A stretch of DNA of 64,000 nucleotides from the sequence record MK295205; one strand, 5' to 3'. Position numbers and translations under genes: made by a program. The stretch is from Shigella phage vB_SflM_004. Under the pieces are notes generated by a model, which worked only from the letters and a program-made list of their open reading frames with translations, had not been told where the DNA came from and made no database searches. Shown here one piece after another: positions 634 through 53,309 of this stretch (positions are counted from its first letter, which is position 1; each line of letters begins with the position of its first letter).

Positions 634-2448
634 TTAAAGCTGCTTGTCAATATTATTTCGAATATCACCAAGAGTCGTGTAGCCGAACTGCTCAGAGTCG
701 CTAAAGACTAGACGTAAAGCACAAGCTGGATGCTCAAGTGCATCTGCAAAACTCTGGAATCCATAGCCATCTACAGCTTTCAGGTTCTCACCATCCCACA
801 TAGGGGCTACACCACCAAAAGCAGACTTCTTAATACCACTATCTGTTTTAGGGTCTTTTGCAAGCATAATCTCTTTACCACCAATGCTTGCAAGAGTTGC
901 TTTGACAGCAAATGCAAAGGTGTCACGAGTCATGTACTGGTAAGTGTAAGAACCTACACCAAACACTACGTTAGAACTTGCAAAACCCATTTCATACAAA
1001 CGCTTCAGTATTTCGTTTGCACGTTCCAACGTGATAGAGTCACCATAAATAAGTCCGATATGCTCATCCAGTACTTTAAAACCTTTAGAGTTGATAGTTC
1101 CTCCAAAGATGTTATACAGTGTCTTGATAGCTCCATCAATCTCCGCCACAGGACGTGTTACAACGTTTGCAGAACCAACCATATAAGCGTTTTTCAACAG
1201 CACTGTATCAGCAACTTCAAAGTCTTCTCTGTCAACAACCATTTCGTAGCCTTCTGACAGTAGCCATCCAGCAATACCATAATTGATGTTTTCAAGCTTC
1301 ATGTTCAGAACAGCATTCAACATTGTGTCGCTGGCTTCCAGCTTGCTTAAGTGTTCGTAATAAGCCTTTTTAGCACACTCTAAATGGATTGCTTTGTATC
1401 CTGTGACAATATGTACAGGGTCTCCAGAATCAGGACGAATTACCAGTTTGCCATTGCGTTCCATAATCTCTTTACGGAGTTCTGGTAATATAACTGATAC
1501 AGTTCTCCAGAAGTTATAAGTATCTGAAACAACACTTGCAATACCAGTTGGGTAAGTTTCTGTTAAGAAACGACGGAAGGTTTGTAACTCACCTTTAAAG
1601 CGTCTTTCTTCTAGCAAGTTGTCAGACTGTAACAGATGCCAATCATCAATCAACTCATTACCACCTTCCCAAGCAATGTTTGCACACATTACAGAATGTT
1701 CAGTGGCTGGTACAGAACTACCAATATCAGAAATTGGGTAAGCCTGTCCATAGATGCGTTTAGCCGTGTATACAGCAGGGAAGCTATCAGTTCCTTTAAA
1801 GCTGGTTAAGTGGCCTACAGCGTTAAATGCGTCATCAGTAAAGCCAGACATACCACGCATAGCAAAGTCATGGCACTGATAAGGCAAATGTAAGTCGTTG
1901 TCACAAGTAAGGTCAGACCACTTCTTACAGATGCGTTTGTAGTGCAATGCAATAGTTGCAATGGTACAAGCCTTCCAAATCTCAGCAGAGAAAGCATCTT
2001 CCAGATACCCAGCTACCCAGTGGAAACCTGAAACAGTGTTCTGGAAGACAATCATTGGTACACGCATAGGGACAACTGTGCCTTCTTCTACAGCGTATAC
2101 TTCAACTGGCAGATAACCTAAGTCGTGAAGTGCTTCCCAATGCTCTCGACCAATAGCATCTTTACCCAGAACTCCGTTCATGACTTCTAAGATTTCATCA
2201 ATTGCTTCTTTTTTGTCACGTTCGAAGAAGGTGGCGTTCCAGTGGTCTATCAGGTAATCTTTAACGAAACGTTGAATACCAAAAGCAACTACACCATCAA
2301 TTGCTAAGGGGCTGTTAAACCATTTGTCACTACGTGGTGTCAGGTTCAACATAAGATATTGCGTAGCATCTGGATACTGATATATATGTGATGCCTTGTA
2401 AGCATCTGCATTAAGACCTGCTGGTACTGCGTAAAGTGACTTACTCAT
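634..2448 (-). CDS. nicotinamide phosphoribosyltransferase family protein (NadV/NAMPT-like; possibly Namat-type)
   Basis: 604-aa ORF with NAMPT-family motifs: HDFAMRG, FKGTD, SVPATEHS, VVSDTYN, IRPDSGDP, VFGVGS, AKDPKTDSGIKKSAFGG. Confidence 0.8.
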   Translation of the reverse strand: MSKSLYAVPAGLNADAYKASHIYQYPDATQYLMLNLTPRSDKWFNSPLAIDGVVAFGIQRFVKDYLIDHWNATFFERDKKEAIDEILEVMNGVLGKDAIGREHWEALHDLGYLPVEVYAVEEGTVVPMRVPMIVFQNTVSGFHWVAGYLEDAFSAEIWKACTIATIALHYKRICKKWSDLTCDNDLHLPYQCHDFAMRGMSGFTDDAFNAVGHLTSFKGTDSFPAVYTAKRIYGQAYPISDIGSSVPATEHSVMCANIAWEGGNELIDDWHLLQSDNLLEERRFKGELQTFRRFLTETYPTGIASVVSDTYNFWRTVSVILPELRKEIMERNGKLVIRPDSGDPVHIVTGYKAIHLECAKKAYYEHLSKLEASDTMLNAVLNMKLENINYGIAGWLLSEGYEMVVDREDFEVADTVLLKNAYMVGSANVVTRPVAEIDGAIKTLYNIFGGTINSKGFKVLDEHIGLIYGDSITLERANEILKRLYEMGFASSNVVFGVGSYTYQYMTRDTFAFAVKATLASIGGKEIMLAKDPKTDSGIKKSAFGGVAPMWDGENLKAVDGYGFQSFADALEHPACALRLVFSDSEQFGYTTLGDIRNNIDKQL

Positions 2449-2466: not shown

Positions 2467-2958
2467 TTAGTTATGTCTTGCAAACTCACCATGAAGTTCT
2501 ATTCGCTTTTTAATTACAGCTTCTTTTGCTTCTTCTACCGTTTTAAATCTTCCACAAAAGTATTCTTTATGGTAAAGCATGACTCTTGCTTTGTAAAGAC
2601 CTGTTTGTTTACAAAAACTTACACCCTTCACACCAGTTTTATTATTCTTGTATATACCCCTATTCCTCTGATTTTGTGACTTTGTGCTAAGTCTTAAATT
2701 CTCCAACTTATTATTAGATTTATCAAGGTCTATGTGGTCTATCTCATATCCACTTGGTATCTCACCTCCAGACATAATCCATGCAATATTATGTGCATAG
2801 TACCTCTTCTTATTTATCTGGACTTGGATATAACCCTTCTTAGACCTTGTGCCAGCAACATTACCAGCAATAGCGGTATTGCAAAGGGTTACTTTCCAAA
2901 TTAGTAAACCTGTCTCCGGTTCGTATATTAGGTATTTTTCGAAGTAACCCTTATCCAT
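2467..2958 (-). CDS. HNH homing endonuclease with AP2 DNA-binding domain
   Basis: 163 aa; HNH motif (AHNIAW...IDHIDLDKSNNKLENLRL) followed by AP2-like segment (TGVKGVSF...YKARV); sits between two metabolic genes. Confidence 0.7.
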   Translation of the reverse strand: MDKGYFEKYLIYEPETGLLIWKVTLCNTAIAGNVAGTRSKKGYIQVQINKKRYYAHNIAWIMSGGEIPSGYEIDHIDLDKSNNKLENLRLSTKSQNQRNRGIYKNNKTGVKGVSFCKQTGLYKARVMLYHKEYFCGRFKTVEEAKEAVIKKRIELHGEFARHN

Positions 2959-5021: not shown

Positions 5022-5279
5022 TTATTTAGCCTTCTTGTTACGTTTACGGTTACGAGCTTTCTTAGCTGCCCGTTTAATAGCTGCTGCACCAGTTGGTCGA
5101 TGCGCTTGTTTTTTACCACCTTTGCCACGGCCTACATAGATACTTTTCATAATCTCATTAGCCAGCTTCTCATCCATCTTGAAGTTTTGCATGAGATGAG
5201 TCACATCAACACCAGTGAGCATACCTAGTGATGCCAGTGCTGCTTTTACTTTTGATTTAAAACTGTTCCAGAGTCCCAT
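5022..5279 (-). CDS. hypothetical small basic protein
   Basis: 85-aa ORF, K/R-rich C-terminus; overlaps 3' end of nrdG-like ORF by about 34 nt. Confidence 0.4.
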   Translation of the reverse strand: MGLWNSFKSKVKAALASLGMLTGVDVTHLMQNFKMDEKLANEIMKSIYVGRGKGGKKQAHRPTGAAAIKRAAKKARNRKRNKKAK

Positions 5280-6034
5280 TTCGTATCTCTCTCAATCTTT
5301 TCACAAAATGTTTTAAGTTCTTCTTCAGTGACACCAACAATACTGTCACCGACATTTAAATTTGTCGCGTAAAAGTTTGAGAAATGTGCTTTGTATTTTA
5401 CTTTAAATACTCCGGCGTCCTCAATCTGCTTCAAGGCTGTCATTCCAGTGGAATCAAATAGGCTTTTTGTGTAGTTTCTCCACTCTTCAAGAGTTTCTGG
5501 ATTGACTTTATAGCTACCAAACAGTGACATGTTACAAGCTACCATAACAATCTCACCACGTTTGAATCCACCATTTTCTGCTCGCCATTGACAATCACCT
5601 TGCCACCCATACTCTTTTCTCCAGAGGTTTTGGTTATCAGAACCGCGATAAGGTTTAACTGTTGGTTTAGATGAATCATACTTGCCGTCAATCACCACGT
5701 CAACATATTTCATCACATCTAAGTGAATTTTTTCGTGTAACTGAAAACCTGTCCAAAGCCATATAGACTTCTCTGGGTAAACTGTCTTAATACGTTTGCA
5801 AATGTTGGTGACCTCTCGAATATTTCTATCATCCAGAGGTTCTCCACCAAGTATTGACAATCCACTAACGGCATTATCACCCATTAATTGGATGATTCCA
5901 TAAAGGTTTGCATAAGTAAACTCTTTACCAGCATTAAACTTCCAAGATTCCCTGTTAAAGCAGCCTTCACAGTGGTGCTTACAACCAGCTACAAAGAGGC
6001 TTACACGAACCCCTTCACCATTAGCGTGTGTCAA
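5246..6034 (-). CDS. nrdG: anaerobic ribonucleotide reductase activating protein (NrdG-like) with C-terminal extension
   Basis: radical-SAM type cluster CKHHCEGCFN, GLSILGGEPLD, IWLWTGF, VDVVIDGKYD, RGSDNQ in first ~150 aa; ~110 extra C-terminal residues of unknown function; TTG start in track. Confidence 0.65.
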   Translation of the reverse strand: MTHANGEGVRVSLFVAGCKHHCEGCFNRESWKFNAGKEFTYANLYGIIQLMGDNAVSGLSILGGEPLDDRNIREVTNICKRIKTVYPEKSIWLWTGFQLHEKIHLDVMKYVDVVIDGKYDSSKPTVKPYRGSDNQNLWRKEYGWQGDCQWRAENGGFKRGEIVMVACNMSLFGSYKVNPETLEEWRNYTKSLFDSTGMTALKQIEDAGVFKVKYKAHFSNFYATNLNVGDSIVGVTEEELKTFCEKIERDTKWDSGTVLNQK

Positions 6035-6094
6035 ATGGTCGAATCTCCATGTAATTCATCTAGTTACCTCACCAATATTATTTAATTGTTTTAC

Positions 6095-6490: not shown

Positions 6491-6533
6491 AATTTCACCT
6501 TAGTTGGTAATGCACTGAATGCTATAGCTAACC

Positions 6534-6806
6534 CTAAGAATGGTTTGAAGCATGACCATAAATCCATATTGTTTGGTTGTTATCACAAACATACAGGTAC
6601 TCTGTCCCGATTTGTGGGACGATGATTGTAGTGTTGCCTGATATGACTGTCATATAGTATAGGTAATTTCTACTCTGTGACGTTTGCTGACCATGATATG
6701 AGAAACCCCATTGTGGGTCTGAAAAACCCCACACCATAACACTAGCCCCAAAGAAGAAGACTAGAATATGTAGTATGTATATCAACGTTTTTGGTATTTT
6801 AAACAT
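6534..6806 (-). CDS. hypothetical membrane protein
   Basis: 90 aa with hydrophobic N-terminal segment ILHILVFFFGASVMVWGF. Confidence 0.4.
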   Translation of the reverse strand: MFKIPKTLIYILHILVFFFGASVMVWGFSDPQWGFSYHGQQTSQSRNYLYYMTVISGNTTIIVPQIGTEYLYVCDNNQTIWIYGHASNHS

Positions 6807-6960
6807 TTTAACTTATCTCTCAATTCACAATAAGAGAGTCCTAAAAAGAACCCTAGTAAGACAGAACCTATGAACAATCCAATAATATTCTCTGCCATAT
6901 CTAACATCCAATAAAAAAGGTGATGTAAGCTTATCAAGACCCACATCACCTTGTCAAGTT

Positions 6961-9105
6961 TTACATAGAGATTCTGTCACGAATCTCAGCGATTTTTGCA
7001 TCGTTCATTCGGGATTCACCTTTAATCTTAGTCCATCCAAGATACCCACACACCCTGTTAATCACAGAGATATCATGTGAATGGCAAACCTCACATTCCT
7101 CAACATCAGCCTTTGGTCTGTTACCACAATGCTCACAGATTGCTAAGTCAAAGTTAAGCCCCTGATAAAAACCTTTCAACATCCCTCTTGTAATACAACT
7201 TTTAAGTGCTGGTAAGTTTTCTGGGTTAGCTACTCTTACATACTGGATTCTGCCACCTCTACAGATATGGAAGAATGGCTCTTCTAAGTCCTGCTTCTCA
7301 AATGGTGAGATGTCTGCTGCAACATTCATATGGAAACTGTTTGTAAAGTATTCTTTGTCAGAAACACCTTTAATAACACCAAACATATCTCTGAACTGTT
7401 TTAACTGAGTTCCACAAAGTGATTCTGCTGGAGTGCCATAGACTGCATATAAGAAACCATCTTCATTTTTAAACTCTTCAGTCTTCATGTTGATGTATGC
7501 CAGAACATCGTATGCAAAACTATAGCTTCCAACTTCATGAAGTCGTTTACCTTCAGCAAGAACAGATAACTCATCAAGTGCAGTAACCCCAAAAGAAGCT
7601 GTGAAGGACTTCACGATATCCCAACCAACCTTATCAGTAGGTTTCTTAGTGCCTTTGTACAGACCGCCTTGTGTGAATGCAAGAGGGTTAGAACTTGCTG
7701 GCATATTAGCAATCATTTCGTAGCGTTTCTTGTGGAAGCTGCGAATCATCTCTAGGTACTTATCAAGCTCTTTCCAGAAGTCTAAACCATTCTCTTTAGA
7801 ATACTGGTAAATCATTGGCAAGTTCAAAGATACAGCACCAATGTTAGCACGACCAACATAGAACTCTTCCCCATCCTCATTAAGATATGGAGATAAGAAG
7901 GCTCTGCAACCCATCGGTGAAATCACCTTGCCAGAACGCTCAAAAGCCTCTGCTACAGCACCGTGACCAGATACACTTAAGAAATCTGGATACATTGCTT
8001 TAGAGCAACACTCAATAGCTTTACTGTACAGGTGACCTTGACAGATATTTTCATCATGTCTCTTCTGGTCATAGATATAAACCAGTTTAGGGAATACAAC
8101 AGGTTTTTTGCTCTTACCTTGTCCATTCATACGAACATCTAAGAGAGTACTTGCAATCATGTATTGTAGTCGGTTGTCTTCATTAGACATATCTGAGTCA
8201 AGTAGTCCGAATGTCAAAGTTGTGAATGCAAAATCACCACGGCTGCAAGGTACAGTGTTCAGTTTCATTTCAAGTGACTGAAAACCTTGAGTTAATTCAA
8301 TCTGTAGCTGCTCCATGACATAATTATGGTAATGTTCTTTAGGAATACCATAAGATGCTGCTTTCTCAGCATGGTAGCGTAGAGACTTCTTAGCATACGG
8401 TACAAGTACCTTATCAATCTCTGCTAAAGTAAAGCCGCCAAATTGCTGTGCAGTTGCTGAAAGAACTACATCACCAATAACCTGTAAGGCTGACAGTACA
8501 GACTTCGGTTCACAGTATTCGATGCCAGACATTTCAAAGCCACCTTTCAGTACTTTACCAATGTCAAACAGACAACAGTTGATACCACCAAAAATTAGGT
8601 CTCTTAAGTCATGGATGTAGATAAACCCTTTTTCAATGGCTTCAAGTTCCTCTGGTGTTAAATGGTACTGTTTAAAGATTTCTTTAGTCAGATAACCACG
8701 AATAATTGAGCCTTTTGTGGAAATTAAACTGCTGTCAAAGTTAGCATTTTCACGGTCACCTAAGAAGAGTGTGTCTCTAGTCTTTTGGTAAAGCTCATCC
8801 CAATTTTGAGCAACCTCTTTACGGTAATTTCTATATGTTGAGTAAGACTCATAAATCTCGTGATTGACTTCTGCCAAAGCACCCTCAACAATACTGTGAA
8901 TATCATTTACCGAGATTAGCAAATTATTCTGCTTAGTGGACTTTACCAGAATCCTCATAAATGCTGACTCAAGAGCTTGGGTAACATCTGGTGGAAGTTC
9001 TTTATACCCAACCCTGTTAGCTGACTTAGTTACTGCTGCTAAAACTTTTTTGATATCAGGTTCTTCAAGTGAGCCATTCTTTTTAATAATCTGTACTTTG
9101 TTCAT
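6961..9105 (-). CDS. nrdD: anaerobic ribonucleoside-triphosphate reductase NrdD
   Basis: 714 aa; C-terminal glycyl-radical motif RVCGYLG and Zn-ribbon CEHCGN...CEVCHSHD; N-terminal ATP-cone-like segment. Confidence 0.85.
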   Translation of the reverse strand: MNKVQIIKKNGSLEEPDIKKVLAAVTKSANRVGYKELPPDVTQALESAFMRILVKSTKQNNLLISVNDIHSIVEGALAEVNHEIYESYSTYRNYRKEVAQNWDELYQKTRDTLFLGDRENANFDSSLISTKGSIIRGYLTKEIFKQYHLTPEELEAIEKGFIYIHDLRDLIFGGINCCLFDIGKVLKGGFEMSGIEYCEPKSVLSALQVIGDVVLSATAQQFGGFTLAEIDKVLVPYAKKSLRYHAEKAASYGIPKEHYHNYVMEQLQIELTQGFQSLEMKLNTVPCSRGDFAFTTLTFGLLDSDMSNEDNRLQYMIASTLLDVRMNGQGKSKKPVVFPKLVYIYDQKRHDENICQGHLYSKAIECCSKAMYPDFLSVSGHGAVAEAFERSGKVISPMGCRAFLSPYLNEDGEEFYVGRANIGAVSLNLPMIYQYSKENGLDFWKELDKYLEMIRSFHKKRYEMIANMPASSNPLAFTQGGLYKGTKKPTDKVGWDIVKSFTASFGVTALDELSVLAEGKRLHEVGSYSFAYDVLAYINMKTEEFKNEDGFLYAVYGTPAESLCGTQLKQFRDMFGVIKGVSDKEYFTNSFHMNVAADISPFEKQDLEEPFFHICRGGRIQYVRVANPENLPALKSCITRGMLKGFYQGLNFDLAICEHCGNRPKADVEECEVCHSHDISVINRVCGYLGWTKIKGESRMNDAKIAEIRDRISM

Positions 9106-14893: not shown

Positions 14894-15391
14894 TCAAGCA
14901 CAGTTTGCTTTCATTACCTTATGGATTCTTTTTTCAGCATCTTCATAAGTTTCTTTAGTAATAAACTTAATTGCTGCAATATTGGCATTGTAGAAGAGTC
15001 TGAGCTTAGAGTCAATCCTTTTTGTCATTACATCGAATTTATGTTGAAGGTTTGCTTCACCATAAACTAGACCACCTTTTGTGTAGTAGGTTTGAATAAT
15101 GTAAAAGTCAAAAAACTCTTTTCCAAAACTCTCAATATCTTTTTTAATATACTCAGAAGAAGTCTCATAAGTCATCCAATCACTTTCCTTAGTGACTACC
15201 TTCTTCCGAGTCTTACCAGCAACTTTTCTTTTGGTCACACTATTAAGCTGTTTCTTTCCAATATAGTATTGTCCGGTTTTCTTACAGTGTACTAAATAGA
15301 CAAAACCAAAATGTTTAGTGGGGTCAACTTCCCCACATAAAGATACCCAATGACCATAGGTGGGACAATTGCCAAATCCTTTAATCTTCAT
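14894..15391 (-). CDS. putative GIY-YIG-like nuclease
   Basis: FGFVYLVHCKKTGQYYIGKK resembles GIY...YIG motif; weak. Confidence 0.35.
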   Translation of the reverse strand: MKIKGFGNCPTYGHWVSLCGEVDPTKHFGFVYLVHCKKTGQYYIGKKQLNSVTKRKVAGKTRKKVVTKESDWMTYETSSEYIKKDIESFGKEFFDFYIIQTYYTKGGLVYGEANLQHKFDVMTKRIDSKLRLFYNANIAAIKFITKETYEDAEKRIHKVMKANCA

Positions 15392-15887
15392 TCATACACG
15401 GCTCCTGATTTGTGAACTCTCTGTGAAGTTCTTCTCTTTTCTTTCTAATTGCTTCTTTGGCATCATCAACGTTATCAAACAGACCAAGGAAATGTGTTAC
15501 ACCGTGAACCATAATCCTTGCTCTCCACTTCTGTGAAGCTTTGTTGAATGATACACCTTTTACACCAGATGTATTGTTGGAGTGTATTTTTCTATTCCAA
15601 CAATTTTCAGCTTGAGTGCAAACTCTCAAGTTCATTCTTCGGTTGTCATCAGTAATTCCGTTACGATGGTCTACACGGTCTGGTAAGAACCCCTCTGTGT
15701 AAAGAATGGCTAAATCATGAGCCATGTATGATTTTCTCTTTATGGTAATCCTGATATAACCCCTTTTATGGGGTGTTCCAGCAACTGAACCAATGACTGT
15801 CCTATTAGCCGATTTCTTCAACCAAGTAAAGACCCCTGTTTCGGGGTCATAATGAAGATACTCTTTAAGTGTCTGCTGAGTCAACAT
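15381..15887 (-). CDS. HNH homing endonuclease with AP2 domain (second copy)
   Basis: MAHDLAILYTEGFLPDRVDHRNGITDDNRRMNLRV (HNH) plus TSGVKGVSFNKASQKWRARI (AP2-like); paralogous to 2467-2958. Confidence 0.7.
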   Translation of the reverse strand: MLTQQTLKEYLHYDPETGVFTWLKKSANRTVIGSVAGTPHKRGYIRITIKRKSYMAHDLAILYTEGFLPDRVDHRNGITDDNRRMNLRVCTQAENCWNRKIHSNNTSGVKGVSFNKASQKWRARIMVHGVTHFLGLFDNVDDAKEAIRKKREELHREFTNQEPCMNED

Positions 15888-32661: not shown

Positions 32662-32926
32662 AAATCTTAAGCGGAGTATCACAGTGTTACATGAATGATG
32701 GTGAGCCAGTTAAATGCTGCCATTGTGGAGGTGAGAACTTCCAAGGTGAAGTTTCAGAGATTGTCTCTGGCAATATCAATTAAGCGCACAAGGTCTGGTG
32801 TGTATATGCACACATTTTATCTTTTTGGGCTTATGGAAGTTATGAACCACAACCCCACCTTATTTACCATCCAAACAGGATTGTGAAGCGTGTTCTGAAC
32901 TGGTTCATTATCAAAGGATTTACAAA

Positions 32927-33366
32927 ATGATTAAGTTAATTTTTGCAAGTGGTATTAACGGGGAGTTTGGCACAGCTACTGGAATGCCTTGGCCTCGTAA
33001 TAAACAGATTTTAGGAAGCAGACTGTTAACCAGTTAGTCTTGATGGGTAGCGAAACTTGGAAGACTCTTGGGAGCAAGCCTTTGCCAAACCGTGAGAACA
33101 TTGTCTTGACAAACTCTCTTGACTTTTATGGTCTGGATTTTAAAGATGACTCTCATTGTAAAGCAAGAGTTAAGCCTGAAGCTTTTGGGGCTTTCCTGAA
33201 GTATATTGATAGCTCTATTGATGAAGATGTTTTAGTAATCGGTGGAGCCAATATCTTAATCTCAGCTTTGCCGTATGCTGACGTAGTTTTCCACAGCGTC
33301 ATTCAGGAAGTTACAGGACAGGTAATCACCGAATTGCTTGGTGGGTTTCTTCCAGTACTTGTATGA
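32927..33366 (+). pseudogene. dihydrofolate reductase, frameshifted
   Basis: N-terminus MIKLIFASGINGEFGTATGMPWPRNKQ in one frame stops at 33035; DHFR continues in the next frame from 33004 (DFRKQTVNQLVLMGSETWKTLGSKPLPNRENIVLT...VIGGANIL...LPYAD); one-base shift near 33000-33008. Confidence 0.6.
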
Positions 33367-33461
33367 CACAGATTTATTTGCTAAAGTACAGTCCAAACCT
33401 CTGGATGACAGGTAAGTGGCCTGACAAACACATTGACCACAAAGAAGAGGGCTTTTCTAAT

Positions 33462-34350
33462 ATGTCACAAGCAGATGTAAGCTACAAAGCTATTTTAAAC
33501 CATGTTTTATCAGTTGGTGAGTTGCGTAAAACCAGAACTGGCTCAGTGATTTCTACCTTTGCTCCACCTGAGTTCCGTTTTGATATGCGTAGTGGATTTC
33601 CATTAATCACCTCAAAACAAACGTTTATGCGTCAAGTCCTCGGTGAAGCATTATGGTTTATGAACGGTGAAAACCAACTAGGCCATTTGCGTTACAGAAC
33701 TTGGGGGGAGAATGACGGAGAGCGTTGGACTATCTGGACAGATGATTTTAAACGTTGGTTGAAAACAACCTATGCTACAGAGAATGATTGGCTGGAGGAC
33801 GCTGGAGGAAGAATCTATGGAGTCCAATGGAGAGCCTACGAAGGTCATGGTGGAGTTGTTGGAGATGGTTTGAATAACGCTTGGGACAATCTAAGAGAGG
33901 CCACAAAAGAACAGAACATGTCTAATAACGCATGGAATGCAGCAGATATATCAAGTAACTCTATGGCATTAGCACCTTGCCATGTACTTTTTCAGATTTA
34001 CATCTCGAACACTAATGAGGTAGATTTGAAATGGTATCAGCGCTCTTGTGATACGTTCTTAGGATTACCATTTAACATTGCTTCCTATGCCTTTATCTTG
34101 GAAGTGTTGTGTAAACTGACGGGGTATACACCGCGATATCTGATTGGTACTTATGGTGATACTCAAATCTATCAGAACCATATGTCGCAGGTTTTTCAGC
34201 TTCTTGGTAATGGAGACAACCTAGAACATCAATCAAGATTTGAAGTCTCTTGAAGACTTGAGACATATGACAGCAGATGACTTCCTAGGTGGGTTGAAAG
34301 GGTATAAACATGCTGGTAAGATTGAAGCACCTTTATCAGTAGGTAAGTAA
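33462..34350 (+). CDS. thymidylate synthase (apparent frameshift near 3' end)
   Basis: ThyA motifs RTGSVISTFAP, YGVQWRAY, catalytic ALAPCH, YQRSCDTFLGLPFNIASYA, GDTQIYQNH; conserved C-terminus (DDFLGGLKGYKHAGKIEAPLSV) is in a different frame after about 34240. Confidence 0.65.
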
Positions 34351-35957: not shown

Positions 35958-37553
35958 TTAGACCCGATGGGTTTGCATTTCCACTTCTCAATACTAGTTC
36001 ATTTTTGCAAAACTAAGTTGAACCAACGTTGAAACCTGTACCACCATAGAGTCTTAAAGTTGCTGTTGATGGTGTTTGTGGCATTGTTACAGTAGCAATT
36101 TTCACCCAACCACTGTCATAAGTTGTTGCATTCATAGCAGTAGCTCTTGAGAATACAGTATTAGCAACACTTTGTGTGTAGTACCTTGCATCAAAGTTAG
36201 ATACATCTGTAGGGATAACTTGACCTTCAACTCTTAAAGGTTTATTGAGATAAGCTACATCCCTTAACTCTAGATATGTATTCACTGACAAGGTGCTCAG
36301 GGAAGAGTACCTTAGTCTGCTACCTTCACCGTTACCAACATACCAACGTCGCATCAGTACTATCTTTTGCAATAACCCCGTTGCTATTCATTGGCTGGGT
36401 AGCTGTCCCACTTTGCAATGTGAAAGCAGCATCTGTAGTAACAATAGTTTGAGCACCTGTGAAAGTGTTTGCAGAGTTATTTCTTGCAAGACTACTTAAT
36501 AAAGAGCTTACAATATCTTATATAGGAGGACTTATGAGCCACCGTGGAAGAACCCATGCAGCGATGATGAAAGGTGCTTCAAAGGAGACACCAGATGAGT
36601 AGAGTCTCATAGTTGCACCTGTCATCTGGTTAAACAAGTTAACATCCTGCTTAGTCCCATCAGGTTGACCAAGATACCAAGACTCTGAACCAGAACCTGC
36701 GTAGGCTTGAACAAATACTGCACCGTTTGCTGTAGCTGGTTTCAATCTAAGCAAAGACCCATCAGAAATAATTGTCTGATAGTTTGTGAAGTTGTTTGCA
36801 CCTGAGAAGGTATTATTTTCAGTTAGTCTTGCAAATCTTTGGTCAGCAGCTATCAAAAATCGTAAGCAGAAGTTGTTTGAGAGAATGAACAGGTTAATTG
36901 ACAATTCATCTCTTTCAGGTTCTGAGAAGGTTTTTAACTAGGGAACCGGTCTTGTTGTTGTAGAAAATAACATCGTCACTTCCGAATCATTACCTACATA
37001 CCACCTATTAGCTCCAGTACTATCCTGGCTACAATAGCGGAGTATGCCTCACTTGCACCAGCAGGGGTCTTCAGTGTCATAGCTTCACCATTTGCTTGAA
37101 TAACTTGTTGGGAGGTAAAGATGTTATTTGCAGCTAGTCTTGAGTATCTTGCATCATTTTCCTCATTTGTTCTCATACCTAATTCATTAGGAGATGGTTT
37201 ATTAAGTGTGTGATAAACTGTTGCAGACCTTGAAGCATCTGCAATAGTTAGTCTAAGACCGTTTGAGTTAATTTTAAATCTTGAAAGGTAATCTGAAAAG
37301 CATTGCACAAGAACTTGTAGAATAAATCTTTTCCACCGTAAGTTAACTTAACAATACCCAGATTACCTGTCATATTCCCGCCAGCTAATTGCAAGAATCT
37401 TTCAAGTCTGAATGAAGCTAAGAAATTTGCATAGGTCATTTTACGGTCTTCATCACCTAGCATATCAGACCTTTTAATTACTCTCAAATGTAATAGGTCG
37501 TCTGAGCGAACTGTATCAATTGTGTTTAGTTCACTTAGTTTGTATTCAGCCAT
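35958..37553 (-). pseudogene. tail fibre gene N-terminal and central portions, fragmented
   Basis: N-terminus MAEYKLSELNTIDTV...LAGGNMTGNLGIVKL at 37553, then pieces in different frames (36994-37308, 36518-36904, 36013-36372) interleaved with three foreign fragments at about 36520-36595, 36840-36935, 37275-37315. Confidence 0.5.
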
Positions 37554-40174: not shown

Positions 40175-40244
40175 GTGTTGTAACAGAGTCGTAATGGTAT
40201 CTGAGCTTGTAGGATGGTAAGAGTACTAAGTTGACAAGGTGCCC

Positions 40245-40750
40245 TTATACAATATCTTATATAGGAGGGCTTATGAGCCACCGTGGAAGAACCCATGCAG
40301 CGATGATGAAAGGTGCTTCAAAGGAGACTATCAAGAATCGTAAGCAGAAGTATTTCAAATGTGGTGTCATCTGTTGTTACTTTATTCTTTTGAGATGTTT
40401 GAGAGAATGAACAGGCTAATTGACAATTCATCTCTTTCAGGTTCTGAGAAGGTTTTCTTGAAAGGTAATCTGAAAAGCATTGCACAAGAACTTATTGACA
40501 TTGAGTATTGGAGACATCAAAAATGACACTTGCAGACGTTATTCAGCTCCAGAGTTAATTCAGGAATGTCCATTGTAGTCATGCCTAGCAAGTTCGTAAA
40601 AACCTTTAACAACGACGCTTTAAGGTCTACACACATCCTTATCGTGATTGCAAAAGACCGTACTGGAGTACTCAAAGGTGAACGTATTGATATTCTGGAG
40701 TCTGGGGAAGTGTTGGTAAAGGTTTTGACTGGACACTTCTTCGTGATTCC
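40245..40750. repeat. degraded mosaic copy of the small-gene cassette at 25700-26260
   Basis: colinear ~85 percent identical segments including the RBS and start of the 25748 gene, the SEKVFLKGNLKSIAQELIDIE segment, VVMPSKFVK segment and KDRTGVLKGERI segment, with internal indels. Confidence 0.7.
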
Positions 40751-44459: not shown

Positions 44460-45407
44460 TTATTTCTTGATAAGAGTATTCAAAGCATTCTGGAGAGCCA
44501 GTTTGCGTTGGTCAGCGTTAGCATTAGCACTTGCTTCTGGAGCGGTATCTTTACCGTCATCCACTTCTGCTTCGCCGTTATTGCCAAGTTCTTCCATAGC
44601 GTTTGAGTGTTCCAGAACAGCACCAGCCGCTTCTTTCAGCTTAGTGATTTCAGAATCCTTCTCAGACATGGCAGAAGCATGGGACGCGATAGTTTCATTA
44701 AGTTTCTGGTTAGCACCTTCCATAACATTCATAAACAGAACACTCAGAGGGTTATCAAGACCAGCACCTAAAATAGCTGTTGCAGCTTCTTTTGCGTCAA
44801 ATCCAAAAGCTTCAGCAGATGCAGAAATCTTACCAGTTAAATCTGTAAGTGCTGCTTCCTGTTCCTTAGCTTTCATTTGAGCAACCTGAAGACGCAGAGC
44901 TTCTAGTTCTTGCTTTTCTTGTTCAGTCATTTCTTCACCTGAATTGTTTGTGTTTAAACTTACAGGAGCTTCTTCAGAACCTTGTAAGTAATTTAAGAAA
45001 TCATCTTGAGACATGATAGAATTAATTAAACCAAGTTCAAGAGCTTCCTGAGCAGAATAAACATTTGCCTCAGTATTCTTTACAGCTTCTTCAGAGATAT
45101 TACGTGAGTCTGCAACAAAACTAGTAAAAGTTTCGTAGGTGTCATCAATTCTCTTTTGAAGTCTATTCTTGCTTTCTTCTGATATTGCTGGTGATGGAGA
45201 ACCCATACCTTTAAATTCACCAGCCTTAATAACGTTAATTGTAACGCCATTCTTTTCAAGTGATTGACGTAGAGATTGGTGGACCATAATTACACCGATT
45301 GAACCAACATCTGCATCTGGTGATGCAATAATTTCTTCAGCAGAAGATGCAAGAGCATATGCAGCAGAGCAAGCAAACTCATCTACATAAGCAATAATTT
45401 TCTTTTT
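44460..45407 (-). CDS. prohead protease (S49/SppA-like) fused to scaffold-like domain, 5'-truncated
   Basis: protease-like sequence KKIIAYVDEFACSAAYALASSAEEIIASPDADVGSIGV...NVIKAGEFKGMGSP runs upstream of first ATG (45287) without a start codon and is cut by a stop at about 45480; C-terminal half is Ala/Glu/Lys-rich coiled coil. Confidence 0.55.
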   Translation of the reverse strand, partial: KKKIIAYVDEFACSAAYALASSAEEIIASPDADVGSIGVIMVHQSLRQSLEKNGVTINVIKAGEFKGMGSPSPAISEESKNRLQKRIDDTYETFTSFVADSRNISEEAVKNTEANVYSAQEALELGLINSIMSQDDFLNYLQGSEEAPVSLNTNNSGEEMTEQEKQELEALRLQVAQMKAKEQEAALTDLTGKISASAEAFGFDAKEAATAILGAGLDNPLSVLFMNVMEGANQKLNETIASHASAMSEKDSEITKLKEAAGAVLEHSNAMEELGNNGEAEVDDGKDTAPEASANANADQRKLALQNALNTLIKK

Positions 45408-45418
45408 GCTAAGAGAAA

Positions 45419-45610
45419 ATGAACAAAGAAGATAAGCATAAAAATGCTGTACGAACTCCTGATGGAAAGGTTCAATCCTTCATCCTGACAGTTGGTGGAA
45501 AACCGTTTCGTTGCCACTGCGGAGCAAACTGTTTTCATAAACCAGATAAAAATGATTTAGAGCTTTACGCATGTAATGCTTGCAATACTTGGTATCACTC
45601 AGAGGAATAA
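45419..45610 (+). CDS. hypothetical Cys-rich small protein
   Basis: 63 aa, CHCGANCF...CNACNTW; its 3' part recurs at 49420-49470. Confidence 0.35.
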   Translation: MNKEDKHKNAVRTPDGKVQSFILTVGGKPFRCHCGANCFHKPDKNDLELYACNACNTWYHSEE

Positions 45611-45885
45611 AATGACAATACTGTACAAACAAAATAAAGATGGCTCTTTTAACATCTGGTCATGTACTGCTGTAGGTGACAAGGTTATTACAACCTCGGT
45701 AAAGAAAATGGCAAGATGAAGAGTATACAGCAGAACCTAAAAACATCGGTAAAAAGAATGAGCGTAACGCTGAACAGCAAGCTCTCTTTGAAGTTGCTGC
45801 TAAGTATAAAAAGCAGGTTGACCGCTAAGATTGCAAAAGACCGTACTGGAGTACTCAAAGGTGAACGTATTGATATTCTGGAGTT
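45540..45885. repeat. chain of short fragments copied in order from loci at 49420-51960 and 40640
   Basis: exact or near-exact 23-50-nt matches to 49420-49470, 49725-49750, 50105-50135, 51185-51235, 51428-51455, 51925-51958, 40640-40695, in the same order. Confidence 0.7.
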
Positions 45886-45888
45886 GCT

Positions 45889-46158
45889 ATGAAGAAAATG
45901 TACAGTCTCTGGGGAAGTATTATGTGGAAAGCAGTAATTGCGCTTGGTGTTGTTTTTCTATCTGGCTGCAACCCTTCTTATGAAGATAAAAATGCTTCTT
46001 ACAGTCTCCCACCAGAGATGCAAGATTGCAGAGTATACAAGTTACATGGTGATGCTATAAGCAGAGATATTGTTGTTGTCAGATGTCCAAACTCCCAAAC
46101 AACAACATCTTATAGCTATGGCAAAAATGGTCAATCACACACTACGGTTATTGAGTGA
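45889..46158 (+). CDS. putative lipoprotein
   Basis: signal peptide with lipobox VFLSGC; 89 aa; degraded paralog at 26590-26763. Confidence 0.5.
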   Translation: MKKMYSLWGSIMWKAVIALGVVFLSGCNPSYEDKNASYSLPPEMQDCRVYKLHGDAISRDIVVVRCPNSQTTTSYSYGKNGQSHTTVIE

Positions 46159-46699
46159 GGTTTTTTCTATCAAGAACTCGATACTGCTTCTCTGAAAGAT
46201 TTGCAAACTTACAGAAACGACGAACAAAACGCATGTGTCGTGATTTTACTCGTGGTAACCATTTTGCTGCCAGAGCAGACGTGTTAGGGTCTAACAGTGC
46301 AGCTTCTAAATGCTTGAAAGCATCTGTTTCGTAACGTGTACCAACAAAGATTTTGAAGTCGTCGTAACGACCTAAGTCAGAAATCTTATCCATGATACGC
46401 AATACTTGGAACTCATCAAGTATACCATCAGAGATTGCCTTGGTAAGAGTATAACGGAACGCTTTGCGCTCTCCCATACCTTCTCGTGCATCTCGCATGT
46501 GTAACAGGATTCGAACTGCTACATCAATGTCTTCTCGCATAGCCTTGTAAAACAAGTTTGGAAGACTCTCTACATTTGACCTGCTTGAACCAGCAGCTTT
46601 GTAGAAATCTACCAGTGCAGACATTGAAGAGGTGTGGTTAACAGCACCGTTTTCAGTTAAACCTGCATGTAGATGCGAGTGTTTAAATAATTCGCTCAT
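46148..46699 (-). CDS. hypothetical protein (possibly N-terminal fragment of a larger gene)
   Basis: 183 aa; GLTENGAV...RILLHMRDAREGMGERKAFR is reminiscent of TROVE/DUF2828-type N-termini (weak, from memory); ORF ends where the lipoprotein block begins. Confidence 0.35.
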   Translation of the reverse strand: MSELFKHSHLHAGLTENGAVNHTSSMSALVDFYKAAGSSRSNVESLPNLFYKAMREDIDVAVRILLHMRDAREGMGERKAFRYTLTKAISDGILDEFQVLRIMDKISDLGRYDDFKIFVGTRYETDAFKHLEAALLDPNTSALAAKWLPRVKSRHMRFVRRFCKFANLSEKQYRVLDRKNLTQ

Positions 46700-49512: not shown

Positions 49513-49957
49513 ATGCAACTCTCAAGTAAAGGCTTAGAAGCCATTAAGTTCTTTGAAGGGTATCACTCAGAGGTTAAAAATGACAATTCTGTAATCCCTA
49601 CAATTGGTTATGGTACAATTCGTATCAACGGAAGACCTGTTACGATGGGGATGAAGATTACTGCCGAGCAAGCTGAACAATATCTCCTTGCAGATGTTGA
49701 GAACTATGTAGGTGCACAAACAAAATAAAGACGGCTCTTTTAACGTAGAATGAGTTTGATGCACTTGTTGTAGAGACTTACAACATTGGCATCGGTGCTA
49801 TGCAGGATTCAACTTTTATCAAGCGTCATAATGCTGGTAACAAAGCTGGTCATGCGCAGTGGTGGAACAAGATTACAGTGAATGGTCAAAAAGTAACTTC
49901 CAAGGGTCTACAAAATAGACGTAGTTTGGAAGCCAAGATTTACCTTGACGCTGTTTA
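49513..49957 (+). pseudogene. lysozyme (GH24 type) interrupted at 49720-49750
   Basis: N-terminus LEAIKFFEGY...PTIGYGT...ITAEQAEQYLL in frame 1; conserved C-terminus (NEFDALVVETYNIGIGAMQDSTFIKRHNAGN...) resumes in another frame after a ~27-nt foreign segment that recurs near 45630. Confidence 0.55.
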
Positions 49958-49974
49958 TCCAAAATAGTAGATTA

Positions 49975-52922: not shown

Positions 52923-53309
52923 ATGATTTACGAAGATTCAAGAGACCAGATTTCTTATGAGAAATCAAGACACCATGTATCTTTCAAGATTGTGAAAGCA
53001 AATGGTGAAGAAGGAACTATTTCACACTTCGGAGGTGAAAATTGGTTTGCGCATGATGCTGCAAAGGTTAGCCATGCAAAGTATCTGAAGGCTTTCTACA
53101 GAGACTTCCCTGCTGATTACAACGAGCTTATCAATCTGGAAAATAAATGTAGAAGTGCTGAGCATAATACAAGAGGGTGGGCAGGGATAGCAATCATGTT
53201 ATCTGTATTCCTTGCTATGATTTGTGTAATCTCCTTCGGTGGCATGTACATGCAGGATTTAACGTTTAATCAAGCTCAACCGAAACTTGATGGTGTCCGA
53301 TTCCAATAG
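52923..53309 (+). CDS. hypothetical membrane protein
   Basis: 128 aa with C-terminal transmembrane segment GWAGIAIMLSVFLAMICVISFGGMYM. Confidence 0.45.
   Translation: MIYEDSRDQISYEKSRHHVSFKIVKANGEEGTISHFGGENWFAHDAAKVSHAKYLKAFYRDFPADYNELINLENKCRSAEHNTRGWAGIAIMLSVFLAMICVISFGGMYMQDLTFNQAQPKLDGVRFQ

What the first reader, a model, noticed from the sequence alone, without database searches (positions are those of the whole stretch)
5246..6034. NrdG-like activase with ~110-residue C-terminal extension
The radical-SAM core occupies roughly the first 150 residues; the remaining residues have no match I recognise. This could be a domain fusion or a read-through into a formerly separate gene.
Basis: partly seen in the sequence, partly recalled or inferred. 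Interest (0 to 1): 0.4.

Follow-up and report, generated by a model that had tools for sequence, protein, structure and literature searches.

The report
Frameshift-made nrdG plus neighbour chimera
The long "NrdG with an extra tail" is two normally separate neighbouring phage genes run together by a one-base change that removes the stop codon, in a sequence full of similar defects, so it is not a new kind of enzyme.

Summary
The 262-codon ORF at 5246..6034 (minus strand, TTG start) is really there. Residues 4-153 are a class III ribonucleotide reductase activase (NrdG: TIGR02491 184 bits, cutoff 126). The last 109 residues are not an NrdG domain. They are the body of the small gene (phrog_5082, function unknown) that lies just downstream of nrdG in every relative I read (9 loci), as a separate 89-125 aa ORF overlapping nrdG by 38 nt in the +1 frame.

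Two lesions make the chimera:
- At 5576, GT is replaced by A. This destroys the nrdG TAA stop and shifts into the neighbour's frame. It sits exactly at the edge of a 215-nt block identical to phage Moogle.
- At 6026, an extra C cuts off the conserved ATG and first 11 codons (MNYMEIRPFDT, now a 12-codon stub at 6059..6021). That is why the ORF starts at TTG.

Neither lesion occurs in the phage records that match these sites (217 and 33), IMG/VR or JGI metagenomes. No fused protein exists among NrdG or phrog_5082 homologues.

The window is also unreliable: from about 25 kb on it has about 160 frame-breaking indels, split endolysin/DHFR/thymidylate synthase genes, and no terminase, portal, tape measure or tRNA genes. 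The read-through reading is right. It is most likely a sequence defect or decayed gene, and of low interest.

The parts
5246..6034 (-). The reported 262-aa ORF (TTG start, TAA stop). It is a chimera of the nrdG core and the body of the downstream phrog_5082 gene.
   Evidence: phrog_626 on residues 2-150, profile 10-163 of 164; phrog_5082 on residues 163-247, profile 14-98 of 98.
5576..6034 (-). NrdG part (ORF residues 1-153). Residues 4-153 correspond to residues 12-161 of the relatives' NrdG at 97% identity. It keeps the CX3CX2C motif (C18, C22, C25) and the GGEP motif.
   Evidence: TIGR02491 184.4 bits against a cutoff of 126.1; profile positions 11-153 of 154; sequence.
6021..6059 (-). Orphaned ancestral 5' end of nrdG. 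It holds the conserved ATG and 11 codons (MNYMEIRPFDT), then R and TAA, and is out of frame with the core. The strong GGTGAGG Shine-Dalgarno sequence lies just upstream.
   Evidence: translation; relatives start MNYMEIRPFDTANGEG.
6026..6026 (-). Lesion 1: an extra C (GACACA[C]GC where relatives have GACACAGC). This is a +1 insertion in codon 12 of nrdG.
   Evidence: Alignments; gap list; absent from all 217 matching phage records, IMG/VR and JGI metagenomes.
5576..5576 (-). Lesion 2: the junction reads CAGA-A-AATGG where the Moogle type reads CAGA-GT-AATGG. This is a net loss of 1 nt (13 nt against the Felix type). It removes the nrdG TAA stop and puts the nrdG frame into the downstream gene's frame.
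   Evidence: unique among phage records, IMG/VR and metagenomes.
5249..5575 (-). The 'extension' (ORF residues 154-262). It is the body of the phrog_5082 small protein, which is normally a separate 89-125 aa gene.
   Evidence: The AlphaFold model has pLDDT 84.9: a long helix plus a small beta-barrel.
5361..5575 (-). Block that is 215/215 nt identical to Citrobacter phage Moogle, inside a Felix O1-type background. The flanks are 92-94% identical to P54 and only 60-80% to Moogle. Its left edge is lesion 2.
5539..5610 (-). Orphaned 5' end of the phrog_5082 gene. The conserved ATG lies inside the 3' end of nrdG (MGGKVIVNGEQ...). It is now out of frame with its body and stops after 23 codons.
   Evidence: family N-termini.
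5246..5545 (-). Possible internal-start version of phrog_5082 (ATG, 99 aa, MVACNMSLF...), with GGTGAG 6 nt upstream. It could still give the free small protein if the sequence is real.
   Evidence: Some annotators use the equivalent internal Met (P0127 and P0129). The more distant family members lack the segment that holds this Met.
6961..9105 (-). Intact nrdD (714 aa), the glycyl-radical enzyme that NrdG activates. It gives the genomic context.
   Evidence: PF13597 profile 1-560 of 562, plus ATP-cone.

Best explanation
The ORF is not an activase with a new C-terminal domain. It is a reading-frame chimera of two adjacent genes that are separate and overlapping in every relative examined. One is nrdG (161 aa). 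The other is the Ounavirinae-specific small gene phrog_5082 (89-125 aa), whose ATG lies 38 nt inside the 3' end of nrdG, in the +1 frame.

Shown: a GT-to-A change at 5576 (net -1 nt) removes the nrdG TAA and cancels that +1 offset, so the nrdG frame runs into the neighbour's body. An extra C at 6026 separates the conserved ATG and its first 11 codons from the core, so the longest ORF starts at a TTG.

Inferred: these lesions are defects of this particular sequence, meaning an error, a chimeric join or decay. They are not an evolved fusion. If the DNA were real, the canonical NrdG and the canonical small protein would both be lost. At best a weakly initiated product, missing the first 11 residues and carrying a C-terminal fusion, would be made.
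For: - Relatives keep two genes. All 9 loci read have nrdG of 161 aa followed by an overlapping separate ORF.
- The ORF hits two separate PHROG families, each lacking its N-terminus. TIGR02491 lacks profile positions 1-10 here but not in relative P0001.
- DNA alignments show exactly two frame-changing differences. The orphaned starts translate as expected.
- No fused homologue was found. The best 120 of 3392 NrdG hits cover at most 58% of the query and are 149-197 aa. The 9 + 8 phrog_5082 clusters are 47-125 aa. The top 40 phage records need 2-3 frames to cover the query.
- Both lesions are absent from the phage records, IMG/VR and JGI metagenomes.
- Lesion 2 sits exactly at the edge of a 215-nt block 100% identical to Moogle.
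- The window is generally damaged. Against Sf17, 25-60 kb has 202 indels, 159 of them not a multiple of 3. Endolysin, DHFR, thymidylate synthase and many other genes are frame-split at 87-97% local identity. Terminase, portal, tape measure and baseplate hub are absent. There are no tRNA genes.
Against: - The first 25 kb of the window is otherwise clean. About 35 conserved genes are each in one frame at 84-100% identity, so the local error rate is low. Two lesions in one 450-nt stretch could therefore be genuine mutations.
- nrdG is likely dispensable in aerobic culture (general knowledge from T4), so a real phage could tolerate these changes.
- A GGAG lies 10 nt upstream of the TTG, and a GGTGAG lies 6 nt upstream of an internal ATG at 5545. 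Some expression is therefore conceivable.
- There are no reads, so error and mutation cannot be told apart directly.
Confidence: 0.8

Rival explanations
1. The mutations are genuine and belong to a real phage. nrdG, and perhaps its neighbour, is simply a pseudogene, tolerated because the anaerobic reductase system is not needed under the propagation conditions.
For: - The surrounding 25 kb is clean and nrdD is intact.
- The lesions are not homopolymer-type sequencing errors.
- Natural Felix/Moogle-type mosaics at this locus exist, for example Ro111lw and FSL SP-107.
Against: - The same window lacks or breaks essential genes: terminase and portal are absent, and endolysin and capsid are broken. 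As written it is not a viable phage genome, which weakens any 'real isolate' reading.
- The lesions are unique among hundreds of relatives.
Confidence: 0.13
2. This is a real, functional fusion. A TTG-initiated NrdG joined to the phrog_5082 domain is made and works. That would make it a 'Rosetta stone' showing that the small protein acts with the activase.
For: - The two genes are always adjacent and overlap, which suggests translational coupling.
- The tail folds as an autonomous domain with pLDDT 84.9.
- The CX3CX2C and GGEP motifs are intact.
Against: - The fusion is seen nowhere else.
- The N-terminal 10 conserved positions of NrdG are lost, including the conserved Asp of the FDTANGEG stretch.
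- The start is a weak TTG behind a 12-codon decoy ORF that has the strong Shine-Dalgarno sequence.
- The context is a damaged sequence.
Confidence: 0.05
3. Programmed recoding is at work. A +1 frameshift at the 5' lesion and termination or frameshifting at the 3' junction would restore the normal products.
For: None beyond the fact that each lesion shifts the frame by a single nucleotide.
Against: - There is no slippery sequence or homopolymer at either site: ACA-CGC-TAA, and CAG-AAA-ATG in the relevant frames.
- Relatives encode the proteins without any shift, so there is no conservation of a recoding site.
Confidence: 0.01
4. The tail is a known accessory C-terminal domain of NrdG-type activases, such as an extra ferredoxin-like domain.
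For: Some radical-SAM activases are longer. PFL-AE, for example, is 245 aa.
Against: - The tail has no Pfam or NCBIfam hit and no PDB sequence match.
- It matches phrog_5082, a stand-alone protein family.
Confidence: 0.01

Closest known systems
Felixounavirus NrdG, the anaerobic ribonucleoside-triphosphate reductase activating protein (161 aa; e.g. cluster P0001, phages REP5, P54, wV8)
   Same: Residues 4-153 are 96-98% identical. They have the same CX3CX2C radical-SAM cluster motif and GGEP motif. The position downstream of nrdD is the same.
   Different: Here the first 11 codons are in another frame because of the extra C at 6026. The TAA stop is gone, so the frame continues for 109 more codons.
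Citrobacter phage Moogle gp12 (CPT_Moogle12, YP_009145655.1), a 106-aa hypothetical protein of phrog_5082
   Same: 215 nt (window 5361-5575) are identical to Moogle. The position, overlapping the 3' end of nrdG, is the same.
   Different: In Moogle it has its own ATG and ribosome binding site and is read in the +1 frame relative to nrdG. Here its first 12 codons are out of frame and its body is read as a continuation of nrdG. The last ~40 codons are Felix-type, with the longer tail ...EKIERDTKWDSGTVLNQK.
E. coli / T4-type NrdG and pyruvate formate-lyase activating enzyme (PDB 3C8F/3CB8)
   Same: The N-terminal part belongs to the same family of radical-SAM glycyl-radical activases.
   Different: Those enzymes have no domain related to the tail. 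The tail has no detectable relative outside Ounavirinae-type phages.

Membership tests
NrdG (class III RNR activase; TIGR02491 / PF13353 / phrog_626) | Profile score above the curated cutoff | tested here: met
   TIGR02491 scores 184.4 bits against a cutoff of 126.1. Fer4_12 E = 4.3e-42. phrog_626 E = 2.4e-61.
NrdG (class III RNR activase; TIGR02491 / PF13353 / phrog_626) | CX3CX2C [4Fe-4S] motif and GGE SAM-binding motif | tested here: met
   Read directly from the translation: C18-KHH-C22-EG-C25 and ILGGEPL.
NrdG (class III RNR activase; TIGR02491 / PF13353 / phrog_626) | Complete N-terminus (profile positions 1-10, MNYMEIRPFD in relatives) in frame with the core | tested here: not met
   The profile match starts at position 11 here and at position 1 in P0001. 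The missing codons lie at 6059..6021 in another frame.
NrdG (class III RNR activase; TIGR02491 / PF13353 / phrog_626) | Single-domain protein of about 150-170 aa ending at its own stop | tested here: not met
   The ORF is 262 aa. The relatives' TAA is destroyed at 5576. The best 120 homologues are 149-197 aa.
NrdG (class III RNR activase; TIGR02491 / PF13353 / phrog_626) | Encoded next to nrdD | tested here: met
   nrdD lies at 6961..9105 and is intact.
NrdG (class III RNR activase; TIGR02491 / PF13353 / phrog_626) | Generates the glycyl radical on NrdD | not testable with these tools
   This needs biochemistry.
phrog_5082 (Ounavirinae small protein downstream of nrdG, function unknown) | Profile match | tested here: met
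   E = 3.5e-38, residues 163-247, profile positions 14-98 of 98. Identity to family members is 55-85%.
phrog_5082 (Ounavirinae small protein downstream of nrdG, function unknown) | Own start codon (MGGKVIVNGEQS...) inside the nrdG 3' end, in frame with the body | tested here: not met
   The ATG at 5610 now reads only 23 codons, to a stop at 5539. All long-form family members keep it in frame.
Evolved gene fusion (Rosetta-stone type) | The same in-frame join recurs in independent genomes | tested here: not met
   none found.
Programmed ribosomal frameshift | A slippery site conserved among relatives | tested here: not met
   Neither lesion has a slippery heptamer, homopolymer or prfB-like site. 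Relatives need no shift.

The most novel reading that the evidence does not exclude
The DNA is genuine and the TTG-initiated NrdG-phrog_5082 polypeptide is made and active. The fusion would then be natural 'Rosetta stone' evidence that this hypervariable, always-adjacent Ounavirinae orphan protein (a helix plus a small SH3-like barrel) works physically with the class III reductase activase. It might, for example, be a partner that docks it to NrdD or to a host reductant.
Probability: 0.04. Interest if true: 0.45.

Novelty: not a real feature. Interest (0 to 1): 0.08.

Why it matters
It matters mainly as a caution.
- This ORF should be annotated as two disrupted genes (nrdG and the phrog_5082 neighbour), not as a novel long activase.
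- Beyond about 25 kb the window should not be trusted for gene-level inference.
- One small positive by-product: the conserved 38-nt overlap of nrdG with a fast-evolving small gene across Ounavirinae hints at co-expression with the anaerobic reductase system. That could be tested in a real phage.

Tried and rejected
- **First structure prediction.** The tail with 10 close homologues gave pLDDT 40 and was unusable. Adding four more diverged members, taken from an exhaustive profile search, raised it to 84.9.
- **No family or structure match for the tail.** Pfam and NCBIfam found nothing. A PDB profile search found nothing below E = 0.2.
- **Looking for the source.** The exact 262-aa protein is not on record in the assemblies index.
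- **Chance hit.** A degenerate junction pattern hit one Henriciella MAG contig. The flanks are unrelated and about 0.14 hits were expected by chance, so I rejected it.
- **Literature.** One search on Felixounavirus plus the anaerobic reductase found one unrelated phage description.
- **Programmed frameshifting.** Considered and rejected, because there is no slippery site.
- **Homopolymer-type sequencing error for the window's indels.** Considered and rejected. Only 8 of 78 single-base indels in 25-60 kb lie in homopolymers, and neither nrdG lesion does.

Full report
**1. The observation**

The ORF is present as described: 5246..6034 on the minus strand, 262 aa. Its start codon is TTG. Only the N-terminal part looks like an activase:
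- Pfam Fer4_12 covers residues 4-137.
- NCBIfam TIGR02491 (NrdG equivalog) scores 184.4 bits against a cutoff of 126.1, over residues 4-140.
- phrog_626 covers residues 2-150.

The radical-SAM CX3CX2C motif (C18, C22, C25) and the GGEP motif can be read directly in the translation. An intact nrdD (714 aa; PF13597 plus ATP-cone) lies 0.9 kb upstream on the same strand at 6961..9105.

**2. What the window is**

The region is a Felix O1-like myovirus (Ounavirinae). The 1.5 kb around the ORF matches 245 phage records, the best at about 90% identity.

In every relative whose annotation or gene calls I read, nrdG is 486 nt (161 aa). The next gene starts 38 nt before the nrdG stop, in the +1 frame, and encodes a separate hypothetical protein of 89-125 aa. 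The nine loci were P54, REP5, Moogle, pEC-M719-6WT.1, ESh21, one ENA metagenome contig, and the three P0131 loci L012 (BPS15Q2), L013 and L014.

**3. Anatomy of the chimera**

DNA alignments and a gap census against REP5 show two frame-changing differences in this window.

(a) An extra C at 6026: GACACA[C]GC where all relatives have GACACAGC.
- The conserved start is still present at 6059..6021: ATG-MNYMEIRPFDT, behind a GGTGAGG ribosome binding site.
- It now reads MNYMEIRPFDTR-stop.
- The rest of nrdG is in the +1 frame. The longest ORF therefore begins at a TTG, and its first three residues (M/L-T-H) are frameshift products.
- Accordingly TIGR02491 matches from profile position 11 here, but from position 1 in the 98%-identical relative P0001.
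- tblastn of the REP5 NrdG aligns only its residues 12-161, at 97%.

(b) At 5576 the window reads CAGA-A-AATGG. Moogle-type phages read CAGA-GT-AATGG, and Felix-type phages carry 13 more bases.
- The change destroys the nrdG stop (GAG TAA becomes GAA AAT).
- The net loss of one base exactly cancels the +1 offset between the two genes, so the nrdG frame continues into the neighbour's body.
- The neighbour's own start (ATG at 5610, MGGKVIVNGEQ...) now runs into a stop after 23 codons.

PHROG scanning summarises this. The ORF is phrog_626 (profile 10-163 of 164) followed by phrog_5082 (profile 14-98 of 98), so each part lacks its N-terminus.

**4. The junction is also a mosaic boundary**

Window 5361-5575 is 215/215 identical to Citrobacter phage Moogle. 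The flanks are Felix-type: 92-94% to P54 but only 60-80% to Moogle. Lesion (b) lies exactly at the left edge of this block.

Natural mosaics with a Felix-type nrdG and a Moogle-type neighbour exist (Ro111lw, FSL SP-107). They keep the GAG-TAG/TAA stop and the two-gene arrangement.

**5. Is the fusion seen anywhere else?**

No.
- Of 3392 NrdG homologues in a 5.8-billion-protein collection, the best 120 cover at most 58% of the query and are 149-197 aa. The three closest clusters (about 780 member sequences) are all 161 aa.
- The tail alone finds nine clusters of 96-125 aa.
- An exhaustive profile search of 1.84 billion representatives finds eight proteins of 47-106 aa, none with a radical-SAM part.
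- A translated search of 50,697 phage records shows the top 40 covering the query only in 2-3 pieces, that is in different frames. All of them start at query residue 4.
- Short queries centred on each lesion were also tried. 217 records match the 5' site and none at 99% or better; the listed best place 47 nt against the 48-nt query. Twelve records cover 80% or more of the junction query, all at 88% identity or less; the eight listed span all 49 nt with a one-base gap.
- Exact junction strings are absent from IMG/VR and JGI metagenomes.
- One hit in a bacterial MAG is a chance match with unrelated flanks.

**6. What the tail is**

It belongs to a very small family restricted to Ounavirinae-type contigs.
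- It is always found directly after nrdG.
- Its N-terminus (encoded in the overlap) and its C-terminal TEEEL..FC.K motif are conserved. The middle is highly variable.
- There is no Pfam, NCBIfam or PDB sequence match.
- With a sufficiently diverse alignment, AlphaFold gives a confident autonomous domain: pLDDT 84.9, pTM 0.72, a long helix packed on a small beta-barrel.

It is therefore a stand-alone small phage protein of unknown function, not an NrdG domain.

**7. Reliability of the window**

This bears directly on whether the lesions mean anything. Window 1-25 kb and 60-64 kb are collinear with REP5 at 87-96% identity (92-96% over 1-25 kb). About 35 conserved genes there are each in a single frame. 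Within the first 25 kb, the nrdG locus is the only conserved gene pair broken.

From about 25 kb to 60 kb the sequence is Mooglevirus-like (Sf17, Moogle), but heavily damaged:
- It has 202 indel events against Sf17. Of these, 159 are not a multiple of three. Only 8 of the 78 single-base events lie in homopolymers.
- Endolysin, DHFR, thymidylate synthase and many other genes are split between frames, although each piece is 87-97% identical to Sf17.
- Capsid, protease, sheath and ligase are truncated.
- Terminase, portal, tape measure, baseplate hub and the whole tRNA cluster are missing.
- Short out-of-place copies of the small-gene region occur between structural genes.

The window starts at REP5 coordinate 53,435 and ends at 53,205. 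In effect it is a whole 85-90 kb genome map squeezed into about 64 kb. As written it cannot be a propagating phage genome. I cannot tell from the sequence whether it is a poor or chimeric assembly, a defective genome or an artificial sequence.

**8. Mechanism and likelihoods**

Shown: the 262-aa ORF is created by the two lesions, and the read-through is into a formerly separate gene.

Inferred: no new function is implied. If the DNA were real, ribosomes loading at the strong ancestral ribosome binding site would translate a 12-codon stub. The core could only start at the TTG, which has a GGAG 10 nt upstream. That product would lack the conserved N-terminal residues and carry the neighbour's domain. 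The free neighbour could arise only from an internal ATG at 5545. The distant family members do not have the segment holding this Met, which argues that the start in the overlap is the genuine one.

My estimates are:
- about 0.8 that the lesions are defects of this sequence;
- about 0.13 that they are real inactivating mutations in a dispensable gene;
- about 0.05 that a functional fusion is made;
- about 0.01 for recoding, since there is no slippery site.

**9. Comparison with known families, and verdict**

The N-terminal part is a member of NrdG by score and motifs. It fails two structural criteria: a complete N-terminus and its own stop codon. The tail is a member of phrog_5082 but lacks its start. 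An evolved fusion is not supported, because there is no recurrence.

The feature is best filed as not a real biological feature and scored low.

Noticed in passing
window 25000-60000 (whole window for the map): The window covers a complete Ounavirinae genome map (REP5 53,435, round the map, to 53,205) in only 64 kb. Terminase, portal, tape measure, baseplate hub and spike are absent. Capsid, protease, sheath and ligase are truncated. The region has 202 indels against Sf17, 159 of them not a multiple of 3 and mostly outside homopolymers. As written it is not a viable phage genome, and its origin is unclear: a poor or chimeric assembly, a defective genome or an artificial sequence.
   Followed up: partly
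window 1-64000: ARAGORN finds no tRNA gene at all. REP5 and Sf17 carry more than 20 tRNAs in a cluster.
   Followed up: yes
window 49513-49967: The endolysin (GH24 lysozyme) is split into a 71-aa ORF (49513..49728) and a 55-aa ORF (49800..49967) in different frames. The pieces are 87% and 94% identical to the Sf17 endolysin.
   Followed up: partly
window 32846-34344: Dihydrofolate reductase is read in frames 2, then 1, then 2. The last ~40 residues of thymidylate synthase are in another frame. Each piece is 74-97% identical to Sf17.
   Followed up: partly
L003:1491-1811, L002:3660-4037, L012:3001-3270 and window 5249-5610: phrog_5082 behaves like a hypervariable cassette. Its first 12 codons lie inside the 3' end of nrdG (a 38-nt overlap in all 9 loci read) and its C-terminal TEEEL..FC.K motif is conserved, but the middle diverges to about 30% identity and varies in length. 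The AlphaFold model shows a helix plus a small SH3-like barrel. The function is unknown, and co-expression with the anaerobic reductase genes is plausible.
   Followed up: partly
window 2467-2958 and 15381-15887: Two HNH_3 homing-endonuclease-type ORFs (163 and 168 aa) sit where REP5 has none. One lies between the PRPP synthetase and NAMPT genes, where BPS15Q2 (L012) also has one. The other lies between the REP5 'NAD synthetase' and RNase H homologues.
   Followed up: partly
window 6961-9105 versus L002:1-1913 and L006:1-1948: nrdD is one uninterrupted 714-aa gene here, as in P54 and Moogle. In REP5 and in an ENA metagenome contig it is split in two, with an HNH_3 ORF between the halves in the ENA contig (an intron- or intein-like insertion).
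   Followed up: no
window 40225-40693, 45407-46165, 36509-36589: Out-of-place copies of the small-gene region that normally lies near the ligase (REP5 79.2-80.7 kb) are inserted between structural genes. An 81-nt segment is repeated at 98.8% identity (36509-36589 and 40248-40328).
   Followed up: no
window 6500-6960: The small genes between nrdD and the 131-aa ORF differ from REP5 in length and frame (ORFs 6534..6806 and 6782..6949). This region is also variable among natural relatives (P54 against REP5), so it may be ordinary variation.
   Followed up: no
window 14664: A single-base deletion relative to REP5 lies about 13 codons before the end of a small conserved ORF (homologue of REP5 68064..68312) and changes its C-terminus. 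Outside the 5-7 kb nrdD-nrdG region, where the nrdG lesions and the variable small genes lie, it is the only uncompensated frame change inside a gene in the first 25 kb.
   Followed up: no
window 1612-1645: There is an in-frame 33-nt insertion in the nicotinamide phosphoribosyltransferase gene relative to REP5.
   Followed up: no
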